This document shows, piece by piece, positions 1-7,930 of a stretch of 64,000 bases of DNA. The stretch is from Kiritimatiellia bacterium (GTDB taxonomy: Bacteria; Verrucomicrobiota; Kiritimatiellia; CAIVKH01). The stretch covers positions 12,180-76,179 of the forward strand of contig DAOLDL010000004.1 of assembly GCA_035327305.1 (NCBI GenBank), given 5' to 3'. The translations under genes and the position numbers were made by a program. The notes under the pieces were generated by a model. It had not been told where the DNA came from. It saw nothing but the letters and a program-made list of their open reading frames with translations, and ran no database searches. Each line of letters starts with the position of its first letter. The stretch's first letter is position 1.

Positions 1-652
1 GGTGAGGGGCGAGTGAATGGAAAAACATGACATCGCCCGGCATTAAATCCACTCGTTTAGGCGAAAATCCCTCCAGAAGCGAGGGATCCGTATCCATCGG
101 GGCATCCGGTGTGCCGGGAATGCGCGATTGATGCATGCCGGGATAAATTTCCAAGGCTCCGTTTTTTTCATTTGCCTCATCGATTGCCACCCACACAGAC
201 AGCATTTCTTCGGCCGGTATACCCAGTAACTCCCAATATGGATAATCCTGGTGAACGTCATAACCATAGGTTCCGGGCGGCTTCATGATCAGCTTGTCTT
301 TGAACAATGCCACAGGGCCACCGATCAATGCTTCTGTCGGATTGGTCAATCGCTGATCAGACGCCAAAGCGCTAAATATCGGTGAAAGATCCAGGACAGG
401 GTCCAAACGATCCATGATGGCGCCCAGCGAAAGATGTTTACGACCCGACACGCGGGGATGATCGGTTTTCTGCAATTCCGCTACCAGGCGATCACACTCT
501 GCCCGCCACGACGCGATTTCTTCGGCATGAAAACACCCTTGGAGCAGGGTAAAGCCGGCTTCACGGTAATGCTGAATGTATTTCAAATCTCCAACCGCAC
601 AGGCAGATTCGTTACCGGTTACTACGCGTCCATTCATGGCAGGATCCGACAT
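1..652 (-). CDS. Phytanoyl-CoA dioxygenase (PhyH) family Fe(II)/2-oxoglutarate oxygenase; 3' end is outside the window (partial)
   Basis: I translated the minus strand by hand from ATG at ~652 (a second ATG is at ~637). It stays open to position 1: MSDPAMNGRVVTGNESACAVGDLKYIQHYREAGFTLLQGCFHAEEIASW...KDKLIMKPPGTYGYDVHQDYPYWELLG...WVAIDEANEKNGALEIYPGMH... This shows the PhyH-type HxD motif and overall pattern. It is absent from the ORF track because it has no in-window stop. The track ORF 43..267(-) is in a different frame. Confidence 0.55.
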   Translation of the reverse strand, partial: MSDPAMNGRVVTGNESACAVGDLKYIQHYREAGFTLLQGCFHAEEIASWRAECDRLVAELQKTDHPRVSGRKHLSLGAIMDRLDPVLDLSPIFSALASDQRLTNPTEALIGGPVALFKDKLIMKPPGTYGYDVHQDYPYWELLGIPAEEMLSVWVAIDEANEKNGALEIYPGMHQSRIPGTPDAPMDTDPSLLEGFSPKRVDLMPGDVMFFHSLAPH

Positions 653-1385
653 TCTTGAAGTTGTTTCTATCATATAAAGACGGATGATTATCAGATGTCA
701 CGGCAAAAGCAATAAGTGGCTCATCCGGTGGAAGCAAAACACTTAATGCTGTCAGAACCTGTGATCCGACACCTTTCCCACGAAGGTCCGGATGCACAAT
801 GAAGTTTTTCAGCCTGACGACGCCATTATATTTCATAATTCCATAGGATGCCACCACGCCTCCGGCCTTGCCCCGAGCCAGATAAAATGAGATTGCTCCG
901 CTCTGACGCTTCCTTTTTTCCATTTCGATATACAAACGGGCATTTACGACATGGCCATCAGGCGCTTGTTGTTCCAATCCAAACAATTCCTCGCGGGCCG
1001 ACCAATCCGAGAGGGTCACCACTTCCAACAGCTCCAACTCAACGTTTGCCGGATTCGCACTGCGGATTTCCGCTCCCGTGGCGGCTTGCACCCGTTCGGT
1101 TCTCATTTTGTAACCCGATTCGGTCAATACCCTGCTCCACTCCGGCGATACTTTGTCCAAATAGATGCGAAATCGGGGAAGACCGAGCTTGATCACGCAC
1201 GCTTCCAGCTCACGAACCAACAAACAAGGGTCGGCGGTCATGTCAACACGCATGGCGGTGGAAGCTGAAGTCAATTCCTCCAATTCGGGCATCCATACAA
1301 ACTCGCAACCGGGTAAATGTATTTTCCGCGCGGCCATTTCGAAATACACCGCATCACTTTCCAGCGCATTACGTTCAACGGTCAT
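612..1385 (-). CDS. GNAT family N-acetyltransferase with N-terminal extension
   Basis: C-terminal GNAT motif A: VRLKNFIVHPDLRGKGVGSQVLTALSVL. It overlaps the downstream PhyH start by ~26-40 nt and the upstream PP-loop gene end by 4 nt. Confidence 0.6.
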   Translation of the reverse strand: MTVERNALESDAVYFEMAARKIHLPGCEFVWMPELEELTSASTAMRVDMTADPCLLVRELEACVIKLGLPRFRIYLDKVSPEWSRVLTESGYKMRTERVQAATGAEIRSANPANVELELLEVVTLSDWSAREELFGLEQQAPDGHVVNARLYIEMEKRKRQSGAISFYLARGKAGGVVASYGIMKYNGVVRLKNFIVHPDLRGKGVGSQVLTALSVLLPPDEPLIAFAVTSDNHPSLYDRNNFKNVGSCHEWTRSNR

Positions 1386-2560
1386 CTATTTCCACCCAAC
1401 TGTGAAAGCAATCCATTGCACAAGTTGTTGATATGCGTAACCGCATCATCGCGCCACCGGAGAAGTAAAAGTTTTCTGCGACCGGTTGATCGTTCAATAA
1501 GATTCAGGATGGCTTCCCTCAAGACGCGCGACCGGCAATTAGCATAAATTGCCGACCACGGAATGGCCAATCCCGCCGGCCTGATCATGGGCAGGTTATT
1601 CAGTTTTTTCACCAGATCACCTCGTTCAAACGCCGTGGATCGGGACAACACGCCCAGGACCTCCAGCGTCATCATGGTGCGAAGACATTTTTCGCAACAC
1701 GAGCAATTTCCGGTTGAGGCGCGGTTTTCCCAGCATACTCGAACATGCGCCAAAAAATCCGCGTTTCGTGCGATTGCGGCGGTTTTCTGGAAGCGGAGAT
1801 ATTGTTCGCCGTAATGCTCAATCTTCACACGCGAGGTGGAGTAATGTTTGTCGGTATCCCTGTGACTCCCCCAAGGCTGGGCAACTTTGTAAAAATAACT
1901 GGAGGGAATTAGCAATCGCTCAATACAATCGCGCAATACAAGTCCGCCGGCGGCAATTGCCGCGCCGTGGGTTTTTCGCCAATCCGCCTTTCCGAAGATA
2001 TGATGCCCGCGAAGATTGGTGCGAAGGATCAGAAGTTTTTTATTGTTGTGCGCGACCAGGGTTTCCATGGATCGCCTGAAGGCCTGCATGCGGATATGAT
2101 GATCGAGCGGAATGTCAAATCCCTGCACGAAATAGAGGGCGTCAATGCGATCCAGGTTGCCCAGATAAGTATGAAATGAATCAACTCCTCCCGTGAAACA
2201 AGAGGCGACCATTCGGCGGGTTGTCGGCAAGGATTCTTCCATCACGCACGTAGAGTCCGACAAAGGGAATACTGACGAGCCGGGAAACCACCAATTGCGG
2301 TATATCGCCACCAGCTTTTTTTGTCCCTCCAACCAGGCGGCGTCAACCGGCGATTCAAGGCACAATTGTGCGCCGGCCTCCAGCGCGGGAATCAACATGG
2401 CGCCGGCAAATGCTTCGATGGAGGGGGCAAGCTCCGCGCCGTCCGACTCGAACCAAACGGACTCCCCGTCAATTTCACAAACGACGCGGTAACCGCCGCA
2501 TATTTGTTCAATACAAGGCGTCGAAAGCTTCCAATAGGGTCTCACGTCAGCCGGCATCAA
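1382..2560 (-). CDS. PP-loop ATPase superfamily protein (QueC / N-acetyl-sugar amidotransferase-like) with ~115-aa N-terminal extension
   Basis: Variant PP-loop CFTGGVDSFHT. C-terminal Cys cluster CWENRASTGNCSCCEKCLRT resembles the QueC zinc site C..GCGxCxxCxLR. The start ATG overlaps the stop of the upstream 64-aa gene (ATGA). Confidence 0.45.
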   Translation of the reverse strand: MMPADVRPYWKLSTPCIEQICGGYRVVCEIDGESVWFESDGAELAPSIEAFAGAMLIPALEAGAQLCLESPVDAAWLEGQKKLVAIYRNWWFPGSSVFPLSDSTCVMEESLPTTRRMVASCFTGGVDSFHTYLGNLDRIDALYFVQGFDIPLDHHIRMQAFRRSMETLVAHNNKKLLILRTNLRGHHIFGKADWRKTHGAAIAAGGLVLRDCIERLLIPSSYFYKVAQPWGSHRDTDKHYSTSRVKIEHYGEQYLRFQKTAAIARNADFLAHVRVCWENRASTGNCSCCEKCLRTMMTLEVLGVLSRSTAFERGDLVKKLNNLPMIRPAGLAIPWSAIYANCRSRVLREAILNLIERSTGRRKLLLLRWRDDAVTHINNLCNGLLSQLGGNR

Positions 2561-2751
2561 TCACGAATTTCCAACTCGATAAAGTCTTCACCCACGGATG
2601 TACATGGACAAAGTTCCAGGCGGTATCGAATTTCGTCGCGCATGGCATCCAGCGCATTCGTCGGGCTTAATGCTCTCGTTGTCAATCCAAGATCCGCGCA
2701 TTCAGCCACGAATTCCCCATCCTCACAATCCAATGAAACATTGTATTTCAT
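2557..2751 (-). CDS. Small HicB-like (UPF0150 fold) protein
   Basis: MKYNVSLDCEDGEFVAECADLGLTTRALSPTNALDAMRDEI matches the HicB/UPF0150 pattern (Y.V.L..EDG.(F/Y)VA..PDL.G....G.T..EAL....E). 4-nt overlap with the PP-loop gene. Confidence 0.4.
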   Translation of the reverse strand: MKYNVSLDCEDGEFVAECADLGLTTRALSPTNALDAMRDEIRYRLELCPCTSVGEDFIELEIRD

Positions 2752-2837: not shown

Positions 2838-3230
2838 ATGAAACTTATCCCGCTTCTATGCATACTTATGGCTTTTGCGGTGTGCAATCGCGCCTACAGC
2901 GAGATCACGGAAATCAAACAGGGTGGCCTTGCCATTAACATATCCGAGGTTTTGTCAGCCGATGAGCCGGGCGTAATGGTATTTCATGCCCCCTGGGACC
3001 AGGACTCGATCAGCCTTGTCGAGAGGCTGACTGAATGGGCGAAATCATATCCAAACCTCACCATCGTGCTCATCGATGTCGTGGACGCGCGAACCCAGGT
3101 TTATCGACAATTTTCCCTGAAGATGCTTCCCTCGATTATTGTGATGGATCGATACCACGAACAGCTTGGCGAAACGGTATTCGATGTCGACGATCTTGAG
3201 GATCTGCTACGGAATCACCGGATTATTTAG
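2838..3230 (+). CDS. Secreted thioredoxin-fold protein lacking the CxxC active site
   Basis: Internal start MKLIPLLCILMAFAVCNRAYS is a signal peptide; the longer track ORF starts at 2598. Thioredoxin-like core VMVFHAPWDQDSISLVERL...LPSIIVMD has WDQD in place of WCGPC. Confidence 0.45.
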   Translation: MKLIPLLCILMAFAVCNRAYSEITEIKQGGLAINISEVLSADEPGVMVFHAPWDQDSISLVERLTEWAKSYPNLTIVLIDVVDARTQVYRQFSLKMLPSIIVMDRYHEQLGETVFDVDDLEDLLRNHRII

Positions 3231-3786
3231 CGACCGGCAGGGATTCCGGATCCAAAGCGGCAAGGTGGGGCAACGCGGCATCTTTGGGCGACAAAACAGC
3301 GTCCCGGCTTGGCCATTCTATACCAACATCGGGATCGTTCCAAATGATGCCGGCGTCATCGGATGGCACATAAAGTTCGGTGCATTTGTACATGACGAGG
3401 GCGGTTTCACTAAGCACAAGAAATCCGTGGGCGAATCCTTCCGGAACGTAAAGTTGCCGGTGATTATCCGCCGACAGAACATAGGCATCCCACTGCCCAT
3501 ACGTTGGCGAATCGCGTCGGAGATCGACCGCAACATCAAATATTTCCCCCTGCATGGCATACACCAGTTTGCCTTGAGGGAATTTTTTCTGGAAATGCAG
3601 TCCTCGCAGAACATTTCGTTTGGAAAACGAAGCGTTGTCCTGGACAAAAGCCCGGGCGATGCCGGCCTCCGCATATTTGCGTGCGTGGTAGGTTTCGGTG
3701 AAAAACCCCCGGTCATCAGGAAAAACACGTGTTTCCACCAGAATCAGACCATCCAATTTTCCCCGTGTAATGTTTAATCCGCTCAT
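3223..3786 (-). CDS. rfbC: dTDP-4-dehydrorhamnose 3,5-epimerase
   Basis: Full-length RmlC pattern: GLILVETRVFPDDRGFFTETY...RGLHFQ...QGKLVYAMQGEIFDVAVDLR...HRQLYVPEGFAHGF. Confidence 0.9.
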   Translation of the reverse strand: MSGLNITRGKLDGLILVETRVFPDDRGFFTETYHARKYAEAGIARAFVQDNASFSKRNVLRGLHFQKKFPQGKLVYAMQGEIFDVAVDLRRDSPTYGQWDAYVLSADNHRQLYVPEGFAHGFLVLSETALVMYKCTELYVPSDDAGIIWNDPDVGIEWPSRDAVLSPKDAALPHLAALDPESLPVAK

Positions 3787-3789
3787 GAG

Positions 3790-4665
3790 TCACCATTCCG
3801 GGTTTTCCGCGAGATCCAATAGGTATTTACCGTATTCGTTTTTGGATAGCGGCTTGGCGACAGTGATCAATTGATCCGCGGAAATCCACTTTTTCCGGAA
3901 TGCGATCTCCTCGATGCATGCCACCTTCAACCCTTGCCGCTCTTCGATGGTTTGAACATAATTGGATGCCTGCAGAAGCGACTCATGCGTACCGGTATCC
4001 AGCCAGGCAAAACCCCGTCCCAGCAATTGCACCTGCAACTGGCCGCGTTGAAGATAAACTTTGTTCAGGTCGGTGATTTCCAATTCGCCGCGCGGCGAAG
4101 GTTGGAGGTTTTTCGCAATGTCCACCACCTGATTGTCATAGAAATACAGGCCGGGAACAGCGTACCGTGATTTCGGTTTTGCCGGCTTTTCTTCAATATC
4201 CAGGACCTTGCCGGTGGCATCAAATGAAACCACGCCATAACGTTCGGGATCCTTGACCAGATAACCAAATATCAGCCCGCCCGAAGTCAGTTGTCCGGCT
4301 GAAGCAAGAATTCCGGACAGATCGTGTCCGAAGAAAATATTATCGCCCAGAATCAGCGCCGCGGAATCGTTGCCGATAAATGGCGCTCCGATAATAAATG
4401 CCTGGGCTAAACCTTCGGGACGCGGTTGAACCGCATACGAGAGCTTGATCCCGAGTTGGGATCCATCCCCCAACAGCAATTCAAATCGGGGAAGGTCTTC
4501 CGGGGTGGAGATGATCAGAATTTCCCGGATCCCCGCAAGCATGAGAACGGAAAGCGGGTAATAAATCATTGGTTTGTCGTAAACCGGCAGTAATTGCTTA
4601 CTGACAACCCGCGTTATGGGATACAACCTTGTGCCGGAACCCCCGGCCAGAATGATTCCCTTCAT
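3790..4665 (-). CDS. rfbA: Glucose-1-phosphate thymidylyltransferase
   Basis: [18 protein letters not shown]...[18 protein letters not shown]...[28 protein letters not shown] is canonical RmlA. Confidence 0.92.
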
Positions 4666-4910: not shown

Positions 4911-6776
4911 TTAAGCGCGAATCATGGCCGTTTTTTTCGCAAACGGTGCGGTAAGCAATACGAAAAGCACTTCAATGCCGATACTGATCCACATTCCGCG
5001 GGCAAGGCCCGAAGTGAATCCGTACGAGTGCAATCCTACGCCCAGCAAATTCACTCCAAGCCAGGCAAAGATCACAATGATCACGCCAAGTACACTTCCC
5101 ACCGCCATTCCCAACGGACCGATCATATTGGCGATACGGGCATGGAATAACAACGCGCACCACAGCACAATCAACAACGCGCCGTTTTCCTTGGGATCCC
5201 AACCCCAGAAGCGACCCCACGACTGATCCGCCCATACGCCGCCCAGCATGGTGCCCAAAAACGAAAAAACCAGGCCAAAGGCGAGCAACCCGTAGATGGC
5301 CTTGGTTGTGGACCTCAAGGCCGGATGCTCGGAGGTGCGGAACAAAGCCTGAATCAAATACACATGACCGGCCAGTCCCGCCGCCACGCAACCGGCATAA
5401 CCTATCGTGATGCAAACAACATGGGTCGCCAGCCAGAAATTGGAGTCCAACACCGCAACCACCACGCCCATCGTATCGCCCTGGGAGGAAAACTTCGCGG
5501 CAACCAGCAACATGGCCAACCCGGAAAAGCCGGCCATGACCGAACCAAGGCTGTTGCGTTGAAACCATTCAATAATGAGGCACAGCAAGACGCATATCAG
5601 AGCGACAAATAAAAAAGTCGCGTATAGATTGGTCATCGGCGGACGACCCATGATCATCATACGCCAGATAATGCCCAACGCATGGGGAATCACGGCAAGC
5701 ATGGCCAACCCAGTGGCGGCGTATCTTACCCCCCGGACATTGACCAGAATAGCAATCAGGCCGAGCAGAAAAGCAAACCCGTAAAGAAGTTTGGATTGAT
5801 AAAATAAATCGTAGCGGTTGTATTTCAGCTCCAGATCGAGGTGACGGATACCGCGTGAAGGATTCGCCCGTTTAAGCACGGAACGCTCAAAACTGTGTGC
5901 GGCGAGATCGAATTCGAGTTGCTTGCCGGCCCGGAAATTTCGAGCCACATCCTGAAGATGCGCAACTTCCTGCCGTAATTCGGGCGTAACCAGTCCCATG
6001 GCCAGAATGTCCCATGGGCTTACCCAATCCTCGTGACCGTGCCCATGCAACGGGATCATTACCACCGGCAATGCGCGATGATGCTGGCTCCATTGATACA
6101 GGCGCGATGACAGAGAAAATACTTCCTTCATGACATCGTTCCAATCGGCAGGTTCGGTCCGCTCAATCAAGGACATGGTGTCCGACATTCGCGATGCGCG
6201 CAGGAAAATATCCAGGAAGGAATAGCCGTCGGCGGGCGGCAACCCCAGCAAGTGATTTACTTCTTCTGATGTGACCTGGAAGTCGCGGTGGTTGTGAGTG
6301 AATTGAAACGCCTGCACCAGTTCCGCGTATTGGCTGGCATTATGGTAAACGCGGAGAATTTCCTTCTCGACCGGCGAGCGGTCGTCATCGGCAATTTCAA
6401 ACGCGCGAACCGCCATTTCGTGCAATTTATGCAAACCCTTGTGCAATTCGCTGAAGCTGAATCGCCGGCGGTCTCCGGGATTAATCCCCAGGGCTTCCGC
6501 GACTTCCGGATGATTGATGAGAAACACCTGTCGGTATTCCACGGTTTCCGGCATAAACAGCAAACGTGCCAGCCACGACAACGCAGGCTCCTTGTCGATG
6601 GTGCTTTTACCGGAGAATTGAAGCAACTTCAGCCGGGCATACGAATCCATCGGCATGACGCGCCCCCCTTCCAACACCGGCCATTTGGCCATGCTGTCAA
6701 CGGAGCCGACCTGGGCCACGGCGATTTCCGCCCACCCCAGTATTGCCAGAAGAATCAGTGACATCATGCGGTTCAT
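4911..6776 (-). CDS. ccsA: Cytochrome c biogenesis protein CcsA (System II) with ~330-aa N-terminal periplasmic extension
   Basis: Trp-rich WWD heme-handling motif WGRFWGWDPKENGAL and a multi-TM C-terminal core. I take the start at MNRMMSLILLAILGW (signal-like), which overlaps the resB stop by 4 nt. The track ORF extends to 6848. Confidence 0.8.
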   Translation of the reverse strand: MNRMMSLILLAILGWAEIAVAQVGSVDSMAKWPVLEGGRVMPMDSYARLKLLQFSGKSTIDKEPALSWLARLLFMPETVEYRQVFLINHPEVAEALGINPGDRRRFSFSELHKGLHKLHEMAVRAFEIADDDRSPVEKEILRVYHNASQYAELVQAFQFTHNHRDFQVTSEEVNHLLGLPPADGYSFLDIFLRASRMSDTMSLIERTEPADWNDVMKEVFSLSSRLYQWSQHHRALPVVMIPLHGHGHEDWVSPWDILAMGLVTPELRQEVAHLQDVARNFRAGKQLEFDLAAHSFERSVLKRANPSRGIRHLDLELKYNRYDLFYQSKLLYGFAFLLGLIAILVNVRGVRYAATGLAMLAVIPHALGIIWRMMIMGRPPMTNLYATFLFVALICVLLCLIIEWFQRNSLGSVMAGFSGLAMLLVAAKFSSQGDTMGVVVAVLDSNFWLATHVVCITIGYAGCVAAGLAGHVYLIQALFRTSEHPALRSTTKAIYGLLAFGLVFSFLGTMLGGVWADQSWGRFWGWDPKENGALLIVLWCALLFHARIANMIGPLGMAVGSVLGVIIVIFAWLGVNLLGVGLHSYGFTSGLARGMWISIGIEVLFVLLTAPFAKKTAMIRA

Positions 6777-7930
6777 GACAAACCTCCCGCCACTGCATGC
6801 TTGCGTTGTCGTCGCGCGTGCTTGATCAACATTTGCATGAAGTGCCACGCCATACCCAGGACAACAATGCCGGTTGAAACATAGGGAAGCAGTCGCCCGT
6901 AATTGCGTGTGACGGCAAATGTCGAGGATTCAGAACCATCCGGTAATTCGCGGTATGATTGTTGATACAATGTGTACCCGCGATGACGAAGCGGCTTGTT
7001 CATGGAAATGGTCAACTCACGGGTAATTCCGTCGGCTTGAACTTCCACGACACTGGAAAAACTCCTGGGAGTCTGGGTGCCGGGGTGAAGCTCCTTTCGA
7101 AAATCCACCAACGTAACCAGCAACGGGAGCGGATACTTTTTATGGCGTAAGCCAATGGCATATTCCTTGTCGCCGACAGGAATGATCAACGGCGCGGTGT
7201 CATCACCGTATAGCAGAATTTTTTGGGGATCCATTTCGGGGGACGACACCAAAAATATGCCTCCCGGCGTATTTTGGGTCGGTTCTTTTTCCAACGGCGC
7301 TTTTTCGAGGCGGCTTATATTCAACGCGGTCAGGTAAGGAGACGGATCCGTGCGCGACTGGTATGCGCGCGCATGATCGTGGTAGACTTCCACCTCCACC
7401 GTGATCGGAATGGGATCAAACGACAAACGTTCGCCGGGCTGCAATCCGCGGCTGTTGATGGCATAGACATCACGCACCGCGCCTTCACGATTCCAGACGG
7501 CCAACTCCCACTCGTAGTACGACGACGAGACATTCGATGCTTCGCCCTCCCACAACGAGAGATAAGATTCCTCGCCATATTTATGGGTGATGGCGCCGCC
7601 GATCAGCATGATCAGAAGTCCGGCATGAATCATGAGAATGCCGGGCTTCAACGGTTGGAATGCCAGCATATTGATCATGTAGCCCAGCAGATTGATCATC
7701 AATACGCCCAATACCAGCTTGGCGCCCGGAAATGGCAAAACGCCGAACACCAAGACAAACCACGATGTAAAAAACTTTTCCTGCGCGGCAAACAAGCCGT
7801 GTTCAACCTGATAAAGCGTGCCCCAAAAAGTAAGGATCATCAGCAATCCAAGACAAATCACGGTCAGCGGAATGGAAAACATCCATTGCACCGGGGATGA
7901 TCCCCACACTTTTAAAAGTTTTTGAGTCAT
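6773..7930 (-). CDS. resB: Cytochrome c biogenesis protein ResB/Ccs1 (System II)
   Basis: N-terminal TM helices, a large periplasmic domain, and a C-terminal TM (VSTGIVVLGMAWHFMQ). Immediately upstream of ccsA and translationally coupled to it. Confidence 0.75.
   Translation of the reverse strand: MTQKLLKVWGSSPVQWMFSIPLTVICLGLLMILTFWGTLYQVEHGLFAAQEKFFTSWFVLVFGVLPFPGAKLVLGVLMINLLGYMINMLAFQPLKPGILMIHAGLLIMLIGGAITHKYGEESYLSLWEGEASNVSSSYYEWELAVWNREGAVRDVYAINSRGLQPGERLSFDPIPITVEVEVYHDHARAYQSRTDPSPYLTALNISRLEKAPLEKEPTQNTPGGIFLVSSPEMDPQKILLYGDDTAPLIIPVGDKEYAIGLRHKKYPLPLLVTLVDFRKELHPGTQTPRSFSSVVEVQADGITRELTISMNKPLRHRGYTLYQQSYRELPDGSESSTFAVTRNYGRLLPYVSTGIVVLGMAWHFMQMLIKHARRQRKHAVAGGLS

What the first reader, a model, noticed from the sequence alone, without database searches (positions are those of the whole stretch)
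1..2751. QueC/WbuX-like PP-loop ATPase coupled to a 64-aa HicB-fold protein, with GNAT and PhyH dioxygenase, inside the dTDP-sugar locus
Four consecutive minus-strand genes overlap (ATGA junctions and a 26-40 nt overlap). Reading upstream to downstream on the minus strand they encode a 64-aa HicB-like protein, a 392-aa PP-loop ATPase (FTGGVDS, plus a QueC-like Zn-Cys cluster and a novel ~115-aa N-domain), a GNAT acetyltransferase and an Fe/2OG PhyH-type oxygenase (partial). They lie directly beside rfbC/rfbA. PP-loop enzymes of this type adenylate a carboxylate or carbonyl for amidation (QueC: acid to amide to nitrile; WbpG/WbuX: sugar acetamidino formation). With an acetyltransferase and an oxygenase this is a plausible three-enzyme tailoring cassette for a dTDP-sugar or glycan. 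The translational coupling to a tiny HicB-fold protein (possible carrier or regulator) is unusual. The components are individually recognisable, but the combination and the extended PP-loop protein are not a described pathway as far as I can tell.
Basis: partly seen in the sequence, partly recalled or inferred. Interest (0 to 1): 0.6.

Follow-up and report, generated by a model that had tools for sequence, protein, structure and literature searches.

The report
Uncharacterised QueC-like PP-loop enzyme cassette
The four genes are real, and the large one belongs to a very big, unnamed family of ATP-using "PP-loop" enzymes that usually sits with sugar-polymer modifying genes. The tiny neighbouring gene is a conserved bystander, not its partner.

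Summary
All four minus-strand ORFs are real and conserved. They are a 64-aa HicB-fold protein, a 391-aa PP-loop protein, a 257-aa GNAT and a PhyH dioxygenase cut by the window edge.

It belongs to a huge unnamed family, with about 7,500 clusters (50% identity) at E<=1e-10 and at least 579 species genomes. That whole family shares the "novel" N-domain. It is not a WbuX/PseA (TIGR03573) amidotransferase.

Across 160 distant loci the family lies next to, or is fused with, polysaccharide pyruvyl transferases, GT2 glycosyltransferases and AsnB-like amidotransferases. It is never beside rfb genes or the small protein.

PP-GNAT(-PhyH) is a tightly coupled, movable module. It recurs in Kiritimatiellia, once outside the rfb locus, and once in an actinobacterium.

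The small gene is a resident of the rfbA-rfbC...rfbB backbone and is present whether or not the module is.

Verdict: a new family-level variant of a known enzyme kind. It is probably an ATP-dependent carboxylate or amide activator in glycan tailoring, but the substrate is unknown.

The parts
1382..2557 (-). 391-aa QueC-like PP-loop ATP pyrophosphatase of an unnamed family. It has an N-domain of about 110 aa, a Rossmann-type PP-loop core, a Cys4 knuckle and a C-terminal helical region.
2177..2197 (-). PP-loop motif F-T-G-G-V-D-S (residues 121-127), a variant of SGGxDS.
   Evidence: F121, G124, D126 and S127 are invariant in 43 homologues. hhalign places it on the E. coli QueC FSGGQDS motif.
1685..1735 (-). 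Cys cluster C275-x9-C285-x2-C288-x2-C291, followed by L-R. It is a QueC-type putative Zn site.
   Evidence: All four Cys are invariant, as are N284, K290 and R293. E. coli QueC has C-x8-C-x2-C-x2-C-N-L-R. This is a stated QueC hallmark (PMC13329287). 17 of 43 members give weak DUF6395 hits here.
612..1385 (-). 257-aa GNAT acyltransferase with a conserved ~150-aa N-terminal half. It is joined to the PP gene by an ATGA overlap.
   Evidence: PF13508 and PF00583. Full-length homologues follow the PP gene with the same 4-nt overlap in L002, L172, L174 and L177. Alignment.
1..637 (-). PhyH-type Fe(II)/2-oxoglutarate dioxygenase. The window holds the N-terminal 212 of 248 aa, and it overlaps the GNAT by 26 nt.
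   Evidence: PF05721 E 3.9e-25. Full length in L001. The HQD motif and distal His are conserved in L172, L174 and L045 homologues.
2557..2751 (-). 64-aa HicB-fold protein with three invariant cysteines. It is a resident backbone gene, not part of the module.
2868..3230 (+). 120-aa secreted thioredoxin-fold protein without CxxC, transcribed divergently from the small gene (context).
   Evidence: Weak PF00085 hit. Gene call in L001. phmmer finds homologues beside the small gene in L001, L002 and L087-L091. L172 has a 125-aa gene in the same position whose homology was not tested.
3223..4665 (-). rfbC (3223..3786) and rfbA (3790..4665), which form the backbone dTDP-rhamnose genes. rfbB lies beyond the window start.
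   Evidence: PF00908 E 2.6e-70 and PF00483 E 6.4e-75. rfbB lies downstream of PhyH in L001.

Best explanation
The 391-aa protein belongs to a very large, unnamed family within the PP-loop ATP-pyrophosphatase superfamily.

**Architecture.** The catalytic core is QueC-like, with an FTGGVDS phosphate loop and a C-x9-C-x2-C-x2-C knuckle that probably holds structural zinc. A family-specific N-terminal domain and a C-terminal helical region flank the core.

**Inferred mechanism.** This follows from how PP-loop enzymes of this type work and is not shown here. The enzyme binds ATP and adenylates a carboxylate (or amide carbonyl) oxygen of its substrate, releasing PPi. A nitrogen nucleophile (ammonia or an amine) then displaces AMP to give an amide, amidine or nitrile.

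**Likely substrate class.** Gene fusions and neighbourhoods across the family point to a glycan or activated sugar. A carboxyl-bearing one, such as a pyruvate-ketal or uronate, is most likely.

**Local arrangement.** In this Kiritimatiellia lineage the gene forms a translationally coupled module with a dedicated two-part GNAT acyltransferase and usually a PhyH-type hydroxylase. The module has been placed between a resident small gene and rfbB, so it is probably co-transcribed with the dTDP-rhamnose genes. The 64-aa HicB-fold protein upstream is a conserved stand-alone gene of that backbone, and its stop/start overlap with the PP gene is a local accident of spacing.
For: **Fold and motifs.**
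- AF2 model pLDDT 90.7.
- Foldseek gives QatC then QueC.
- Invariant G124, D126, S127, C275, C285, C288, C291, K290 and R293.
- The motif order and spacing match E. coli QueC and the published hallmarks (PMC13329287).

**Family size and namelessness.**

**Glycan link.**
- Fusions to PS_pyruv_trans (L037, P0243, P0316, P0355) and to GT2 (P0022, P0253, P0259, P0316). P0024 (639 aa) has an N-terminus closely resembling P0022's GT2 domain, but it was not itself scanned against Pfam.
- In 64 distant loci with at least 3 kb on both flanks, 24 have a pyruvyl-transferase-like ORF, 24 have GT2 and 11 have an AsnB-like ORF.
- In 36 of 160 distant loci a pyruvyl-transferase-like ORF lies within 300 nt on the same strand.

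**Module.**
- PP and GNAT overlap by 4 nt in the window, L002, L172, L174 and L177.
- PhyH follows in the window, L172 and L174.
- All three are adjacent in the actinobacterial locus L045.
- L174 reads PS_pyruv_trans-PP-GNAT-PhyH-Asn_synthase, away from rfb genes.

**Small gene as bystander.**
Against: - No biochemical datum exists for any family member.
- The substrate class rests on guilt by association, using crude six-frame ORF calls on often truncated contigs.
- About half of the well-flanked loci show none of the three marker neighbours.
- The 64-kb window itself holds no pyruvyl transferase, GT2 or AsnB-like gene of those clusters.
- The GNAT/PhyH association is patchy. It was found in 1 of 160 distant loci, and it is absent beside P0090, which is 72% identical to the L045 enzyme.
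- Sequence similarity to QueC is not significant (hhalign probability 9.5%; no PDB sequence hit), so homology rests on fold and motifs.
- Zn binding is inferred from the motif only. An Fe-S cluster is not excluded.
Confidence: 0.6

Rival explanations
1. The 64-aa HicB-fold protein is a dedicated partner of the PP-loop enzyme. It would act as a carrier, substrate or regulator, as QatB is for QatC or TtuB for TtuA.
For: There is a stop/start overlap (TGATG) in the window. The best Foldseek match of the PP model is QatC solved in complex with its small partner QatB. The small protein has three invariant cysteines.
Against: - No small-protein homologue occurs in 160 distant PP loci.
- The small gene is kept at the same backbone site without any PP gene in L087, L088 and L090.
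- It lies upstream of rplM in the MAG whose PP module is on another contig.
- It is 86-131 nt from the PP gene in L002, L172 and L177.
- There is no PADLOC QatC hit.
Confidence: 0.06
2. The PP enzyme is a functional analogue of the WbpG/WbuX/PseA acetamidino synthases. The GNAT N-acetylates an amino sugar of the dTDP pathway, and the PP enzyme then converts the acetamido group to an acetamidino group.
For: PP and GNAT are tightly coupled (4-nt overlap in five loci). The module lies among rfbA, rfbC and rfbB in three loci. PP-loop chemistry suits amide activation (established for QueC; PMC13329287).
Against: - No member hits TIGR03573.
- WbpG-type enzymes carry SGGxDSxY, CxxC(x)6CxC and YDC in reverse order (PMC13329287). 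This family has the QueC order.
- No aminotransferase for making a dTDP-amino sugar lies in the module.
- The module also occurs away from rfb genes (L174, L045).
- Family-wide partners are pyruvyl transferases and GT2, not GNATs.
Confidence: 0.15
3. The module makes or modifies a small soluble metabolite rather than a glycan. One example would be an acetylated, hydroxylated, amidated amino-acid derivative or compatible solute.
For: The best NCBIfam similarities of the PhyH protein are ectoine hydroxylase (E 1.7e-18, far below cut-off) and methylphosphonate hydroxylase. GNAT plus an AsnB-type amidotransferase occur in L174. BKACE enzymes neighbour about 7 family loci.
Against: The PP domain is repeatedly fused covalently to GT2 and polysaccharide pyruvyl transferase domains. 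The neighbour spectrum is dominated by glycan genes, including Wzy_C and Acyl_transf_3 near P0090.
Confidence: 0.12
4. The protein is a sulfur transferase of the LarE/TtuA/NcsA type, and the four cysteines hold a [4Fe-4S] cluster.
Against: The cysteine spacing and position copy the QueC zinc motif, not the three-Cys LarE/TtuA cluster sites (PMC13329287). There is no further conserved cysteine for persulfide chemistry. No sulfur-carrier or cysteine-desulfurase neighbours were seen.
Confidence: 0.06

Closest known systems
QueC (7-cyano-7-deazaguanine synthase, PF06508/TIGR00364)
   Different: Sequence similarity is not significant, with 10-12% identity over about 170 of 391 residues. This family has an extra ~110-aa N-domain and a C-terminal helical region. 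The QueC substrate motifs (YxQxHxxE and others) are absent. The genomic context is glycan genes, not queD/queE.
QatC and Cap9 (QueC-family protein-deazaguanylating enzymes of QatABCD and type IV CBASS defence)
   Different: TM-score is only 0.43. There is no PADLOC hit and no QatA, QatB, QatD or CD-NTase neighbours. QatC has a C(x)19CGxCxxRR variant motif.
WbpG/WbuX/PseA/LfnA N-acetyl-sugar amidotransferases (TIGR03573)
   Same: These are PP-loop enzymes of 300-400 aa working in surface-glycan pathways, so the chemistry type is plausibly the same (activation followed by N-nucleophile).
   Different: No HMM match for any of 43 family members. The motif set and order differ (PMC13329287). The partners differ.
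AsnB-type glycan amidotransferases (asparagine synthase-like, PF00733)
   Same: They also carry a PP-loop adenylation domain, and they are often encoded next to this family (19 of 160 loci by ORF clustering, 24 of 160 by HMM; L174).
   Different: AsnB enzymes carry an N-terminal glutaminase domain and lack the Cys4 knuckle. Here they are neighbours, not homologues at family level.
HicB antitoxin N-domain and stand-alone HicB-like proteins (TTHA1013, Swol_0700)
   Different: There is no HicA toxin gene, no C-terminal DNA-binding domain and no Pfam HicB hit. It has three invariant cysteines (CPC motif) and very slow evolution.
Pfam DUF6395
   Same: There are weak sub-threshold matches (best E 0.022; 17 of 43 members) over the Cys knuckle.
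   Different: All matches are below the gathering score and cover about 35 residues only. DUF6395 is itself uncharacterised, and no paper mentions it.

Membership tests
PP-loop ATP pyrophosphatase superfamily (adenine nucleotide alpha-hydrolase fold) | SGGxDS-type phosphate-binding loop after the first beta-strand | tested here: met
   FTGGVDS at residues 121-127, directly after strand E116-120. G124, D126 and S127 are invariant in 43 homologues. It aligns with QueC FSGGQDS.
PP-loop ATP pyrophosphatase superfamily (adenine nucleotide alpha-hydrolase fold) | Rossmann-like alpha/beta core superposable on solved members | tested here: met
PP-loop ATP pyrophosphatase superfamily (adenine nucleotide alpha-hydrolase fold) | ATP to AMP + PPi turnover with an adenylated intermediate | not testable with these tools
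   Needs an enzyme assay.
QueC family (PF06508 / TIGR00364) | Match to the family HMM above the gathering score | tested here: not met
   No hit for the window protein. Only 2 of 43 members give PF06508 hits, at E about 0.07. No TIGR00364 hit.
QueC family (PF06508 / TIGR00364) | C(x)8CxxCxxC zinc motif C-terminal to the P-loop | tested here: met
   C275-x9-C285-x2-C288-x2-C291 is invariant, which is one residue longer than in E. coli QueC. Metal identity was not tested.
QueC family (PF06508 / TIGR00364) | Association with queD/queE/folE and the 7-deazaguanine substrate motifs | tested here: not met
   Neighbours are GT2, pyruvyl transferase, AsnB-like, methyltransferase and ABC genes. The YxQxHxxE motif is absent from the consensus.
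WbuX/PseA/WbpG N-acetyl-sugar amidotransferase (TIGR03573) | Match to TIGR03573 | tested here: not met
   No hit at E<=1 for any of 43 members.
WbuX/PseA/WbpG N-acetyl-sugar amidotransferase (TIGR03573) | SGGxDSxY, CxxC(x)6CxC and YDC motifs in the order reversed relative to QueC (PMC13329287) | tested here: not met
   The family consensus has the P-loop first and C(x)9CxxCxxC last. There is no CxxC(x)6CxC.
QatC (QatABCD defence) | PADLOC QatC model and qatA/B/D neighbours | tested here: not met
   No PADLOC hit at E<=1. The neighbours are rfb, GNAT and PhyH genes.
HicAB toxin-antitoxin (HicB) | HicB N-domain fold | tested here: met
HicAB toxin-antitoxin (HicB) | Adjacent HicA toxin gene and a C-terminal RHH/HTH DNA-binding domain | tested here: not met
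   The protein is only 64 aa and ends after beta4. No HicA is annotated among the neighbours in the small-gene loci examined, though no HicA HMM was run on them. There is no Pfam, NCBIfam or PADLOC hit.
GNAT acyltransferases | Pfam GNAT model above cut-off and the acyl-CoA pyrophosphate-binding R/Q-x-x-G-x-G/A motif | tested here: met
   PF13508 scores 29.1 bits (cut-off 27) and PF00583 scores 24.2 (cut-off 20.7). RGKGVG is present in the sequence.
PhyH Fe(II)/2-oxoglutarate dioxygenases | PF05721 match and the HxD...H facial triad | tested here: met
   E 3.9e-25. HQD and the distal H of FFHSLxPH are conserved in four homologues.

The most novel reading that the evidence does not exclude
The family catalyses a glycan modification that has not been described. 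One candidate is ATP-dependent conversion of the carboxylate of a pyruvate-ketal or uronic acid into an amide, nitrile or amino-acid conjugate. In Kiritimatiellia, the PP-GNAT-PhyH module would then build a new acylated or hydroxylated nitrogen substituent on a rhamnose-pathway glycan. This would give thousands of 'hypothetical proteins' in polysaccharide loci a function.
Probability: 0.3. Interest if true: 0.65.

Novelty: new variant of a known kind. Interest (0 to 1): 0.42.

Why it matters
The PP-loop protein stands for a very large family. It has about 7,500 50%-identity clusters at E<=1e-10 and hits in at least 579 species-level genomes across many phyla. It has no Pfam, NCBIfam or literature description, yet it is repeatedly fused or operon-linked to polysaccharide pyruvyl transferases and GT2 glycosyltransferases.

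Assigning its reaction would improve annotation of exopolysaccharide, capsule and cell-wall glycan loci, and might reveal a new glycan substituent.

The work also corrects a tempting misreading. Stop/start overlap with a tiny conserved gene does not make that gene a partner.

Tried and rejected
- **Sequence searches with no significant hit.** The PP protein and its 43-member profile were run against Pfam, NCBIfam, PADLOC and PDB sequences. Only sub-threshold DUF6395 and QueC hits on the Cys knuckle appeared.
- **hhalign against E. coli QueC.** The P-loops align, but probability is only 9.5%.
- **AFDB50 fold search.** The library was unavailable.
- **Homologue search with the GNAT.** It returned only itself, although clear homologues exist in L002, L090, L172, L174 and L045. 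This is a limit of the word index, so the GNAT family distribution could not be mapped.
- **Metagenome scan.** It returned only distant (<=41% identity) PP loci and no further close relatives.
- **Horizontal-transfer signature.** The module shows no GC anomaly.
- **Promoter and terminator scan.** Counts are at shuffle level.
- **Rfam and tRNA scans of the window.** Nothing was found.
- **Literature searches.** Searches for DUF6395, PP-loop with pyruvyl, QueC-like with polysaccharide, and pyruvyltransferase with alpha-hydrolase found nothing relevant.
- **Considered and rejected.** A HicAB toxin-antitoxin pair (no HicA, no DNA-binding domain). A GNAT-toxin/small-antitoxin pair (the GNAT is 257-276 aa with a conserved N-half, and the small gene also occurs without it). 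A Qat or CBASS defence system (no PADLOC hits, no partner genes).
Full report
**1.

The ORF list and the minus-strand sequence show four co-directional ORFs.
- The 64-aa ORF lies at 2557..2751.
- The PP-loop ORF lies at 1382..2557.
- The 257-aa ORF lies at 612..1385.
- A fourth ORF starts at ATG 637 and runs off the window start.

The junctions are TGATG (1-nt overlap), ATGA (4-nt overlap) and a 26-nt overlap. Pfam confirms a GNAT domain in the third ORF (PF13508 and PF00583, both above cut-off) and PhyH in the fourth (E 3.9e-25). It also confirms rfbC (3223..3786) and rfbA (3790..4665) nearby.

One correction is needed. A divergently transcribed 120-aa thioredoxin-fold gene (2868..3230, + strand) separates the small gene from rfbC.

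A 113-kb contig of the same organism (L001, 99% identical PP protein) completes the picture. The order there is rfbA-rfbC-(120 aa, opposite strand)-64 aa-391 aa-GNAT-PhyH (248 aa)-rfbB. Source names place the organism in the Kiritimatiellia.

**2. What the 391-aa protein is**

It matches nothing in Pfam, NCBIfam or PADLOC, and nothing in PDB sequences either alone or as a 43-sequence profile.

It nevertheless has 290 word-indexed homologues, all labelled 'hypothetical'. An exhaustive profile search found 9003 cluster representatives at E<=1e-3, 7509 at E<=1e-10 and 4024 at E<=1e-30. A pattern scan of species-representative genomes confirmed at least 579 hits in many phyla. These include Planctomycetota, Verrucomicrobiota, Gemmatimonadota, Acidobacteriota, Actinomycetota and Pseudomonadota.

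Homologues align end to end, so the N-terminal ~110 residues are a family feature. Invariant positions are E48, F121, G124, D126, S127, D148, G230, D236, R255, C275, N284, C285, C288, K290, C291 and R293.

An AlphaFold model built on that alignment is confident (pLDDT 90.7, pTM 0.89).
- Foldseek ranks QatC (407 columns, TM 0.43) and then QueC.
- hhalign places FTGGVDS on QueC's FSGGQDS, though with low probability.
- The cysteine cluster C-x9-C-x2-C-x2-C-L-R mirrors E. coli QueC's C-x8-C-x2-C-x2-C-N-L-R.

A recent survey of the QueC family names SGGxDS and C(x)8CxxCxxC as the two QueC hallmarks. It describes WbpG-type N-sugar amidotransferases as having a different motif set in reversed order (PMC13329287).

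No member of the present family hits TIGR03573 or TIGR00364. Seventeen of 43 give sub-threshold hits to the uncharacterised DUF6395, over the Cys knuckle only.

The conclusion is a QueC-like PP-loop enzyme. It is not a member of the QueC, WbuX/PseA or QatC families.

**3. What the family travels with**

I fetched 160 distant loci, called ORFs in six frames, clustered the neighbours and named the clusters with Pfam.

Recurrent neighbours are:
- GT2 glycosyltransferases
- polysaccharide pyruvyl transferases (PF04230)
- AsnB-like amidotransferases
- SAM methyltransferases
- ABC ATPases
- Acyl_transf_3
- BKACE

Among the 64 loci with at least 3 kb on both flanks, 24 have a pyruvyl-transferase-like ORF, 24 have GT2, 11 have an AsnB-like ORF and 31 have at least one of these. 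In 36 of the 160 loci a pyruvyl-transferase-like ORF lies within 300 nt on the same strand as the PP gene.

Fusion proteins point the same way.
- PS_pyruv_trans + PP: L037, P0243, P0316, P0355.
- GT2 + PP: P0022, P0253, P0259, P0316. P0024 looks the same from its sequence but was not scanned.
- PP-PP tandems: L053, P0241.

No rfbA or rfbC homologue of the window type was found beside the PP gene in these 160 loci. The only exception is one weak rfbA-like hit (L067, E 8.7e-9). A few weak rfbB-like epimerase/dehydratase hits also occur.

**4. The module and the bystander**

PP and GNAT overlap by 4 nt in every relative that has both: the window, L002, L172, L174 and L177. PhyH follows in the window, L172 and L174.

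In the Kiritimatiellia MAG GCA_035327665.1 the operon reads PS_pyruv_trans-PP-GNAT-PhyH-Asn_synthase. It is far from any rfb gene (L174).

An Iamiaceae (Actinomycetota) contig has PP, PhyH and GNAT homologues side by side (L045). Its PP protein belongs to a different, actinobacterial clade. A 72%-identical relative lacks both partners. The trio is therefore real but patchy.

The small protein behaves differently.
- It is strongly conserved (130 homologues, 48-100% identity; invariant C18, C48, C50).
- It folds as beta-beta-beta-alpha-beta (pLDDT 87).

The comparative evidence, however, does not support it as a PP partner.
- Its HMM hits none of the 160 distant PP loci.
- Close Kiritimatiellia relatives keep rfbA-rfbC-(thioredoxin-fold gene)-small gene with no PP gene. 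In L088 the small gene is followed directly by rfbB. In L087 it is followed by an oppositely oriented UDPGP gene. In L090 it is followed by the GNAT homologue alone.
- In the MAG that carries L174, the small gene is on another contig, upstream of rplM-rpsI. In a Verrucomicrobiae MAG it stands alone.
- Where both genes are present in relatives, they are 86-131 nt apart.
- Between the window and L177 the small protein is 84% identical and the PP protein only 52%.

The small gene is a resident of the backbone. The PP-GNAT(-PhyH) module was inserted, or in other lineages lost, between it and rfbB. The module shows no compositional anomaly.

**5. Mechanism**

What is shown: fold, motifs, family size, fusions, neighbourhoods and module structure.

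What is inferred from established PP-loop enzymology (QueC, AsnB, NAD synthetase, WbpG): ATP binds the FTGGVDS loop. A substrate carboxylate or amide carbonyl is adenylated with release of PPi. A nitrogen nucleophile then displaces AMP.

The four cysteines most likely hold structural zinc, as in QueC. The lack of any other conserved cysteine argues against LarE/TtuA-type sulfur transfer.

The recurrent physical and genetic link to pyruvyl transferases, which install a free carboxylate on sugars, makes a carboxylated glycan the best-guess substrate. So does the link to GT2 and AsnB-like enzymes. In this lineage the GNAT and PhyH would acylate and hydroxylate the same substituent or sugar, but the order and substrate are unknown. 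My confidence is about 0.9 for the superfamily and fold, about 0.65 for a glycan-tailoring role and about 0.3 for carboxylate amidation specifically.

**6. Rivals**

- **Small-protein partner or carrier (0.06).** Contradicted by co-occurrence.
- **WbpG-like acetamidino synthase acting with the GNAT on a dTDP-amino sugar (0.15).** The chemistry is plausible, but family membership fails, there is no aminotransferase, and the module also lives outside rfb loci.
- **Soluble-metabolite pathway (0.12).** There is a weak ectoine-hydroxylase-like similarity, plus BKACE and AsnB neighbours. The GT2 and pyruvyl-transferase fusions argue against it.
- **Fe-S sulfur transferase (0.06).**

**7. Novelty and score**

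The components belong to known superfamilies, and the HicB coupling that made the finding look unusual is not supported. What remains is a very large, undescribed QueC-like family with a distinctive architecture and a consistent glycan context, plus a small lineage-restricted three-enzyme module. That is a new variant of a known kind. It is a useful lead for glycobiology and annotation rather than a surprise. Interest 0.42.

**Caveats**

- Neighbour statistics rest on crude ORF calls and many truncated contigs.
- The locus scans were seeded on the two most conserved motifs.
- The GNAT family could not be surveyed.
- The AFDB library was unavailable.

Noticed in passing
window 2557..2751 (-); alignment A2; loci L083-L091: The 64-aa HicB-fold protein belongs to a highly conserved family seen here in Kiritimatiellia and Verrucomicrobiae (one hit is labelled 'Candidatus Acidoferrum'). 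It has three invariant cysteines (C18, C48, C50; motif EIRYRLELCPCTSV), no HicA partner and no DNA-binding domain. It evolves much more slowly than its neighbours and in one MAG sits upstream of rplM-rpsI. Its function is unknown, possibly metal or redox related.
   Followed up: partly
window 2868..3230 (+): A secreted 120-aa thioredoxin-fold protein lacks the CxxC motif (FHAPWDQDS). It is transcribed divergently from the small gene. phmmer finds homologues in that position in L001, L002 and L087-L091, and L172 has a 125-aa gene in the same place that was not tested. It overlaps the 3' end of rfbC by 8 nt, convergently.
   Followed up: partly
L015, L029, L033, L058, L061, L065, L072; L053 (832 aa); P0241 (719 aa): Tandem paralogues of the PP-family gene occur in 22 of 162 loci, and there are head-to-tail PP-PP fusion proteins. 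This suggests the enzyme works as a homo- or heterodimer, as QueC does.
   Followed up: no
L090 4107..5128; L091: In one Kiritimatiellia relative the module's GNAT homologue (E 4.5e-50) directly follows the small gene with a 4-nt overlap. There is no PP or PhyH gene, which implies gene loss or reshuffling at this site.
   Followed up: partly
L042, L052 and about five other PP loci: Beta-keto acid cleavage enzymes (BKACE, PF05853, E about 1e-81) recur near the PP-family gene. This is unexpected in a purely glycan context.
   Followed up: no
window 4911..6848 (-); L001 4628..7647: ResB- and CcsA-type cytochrome c biogenesis genes lie immediately beyond rfbA. They are ordinary and unrelated to the finding.
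   Followed up: no
L172 12126..12803: A PIN/PhdYeFM toxin-antitoxin pair lies downstream of rfbB in the relative carrying P0004. It is absent from L001.
   Followed up: no
P0139 (108 aa): JGI names an N-terminally extended homologue of the small protein 'diphthamide synthase (EF-2-diphthine-ammonia ligase)', which is a PP-loop enzyme name. This is probably an annotation artefact.
   Followed up: no
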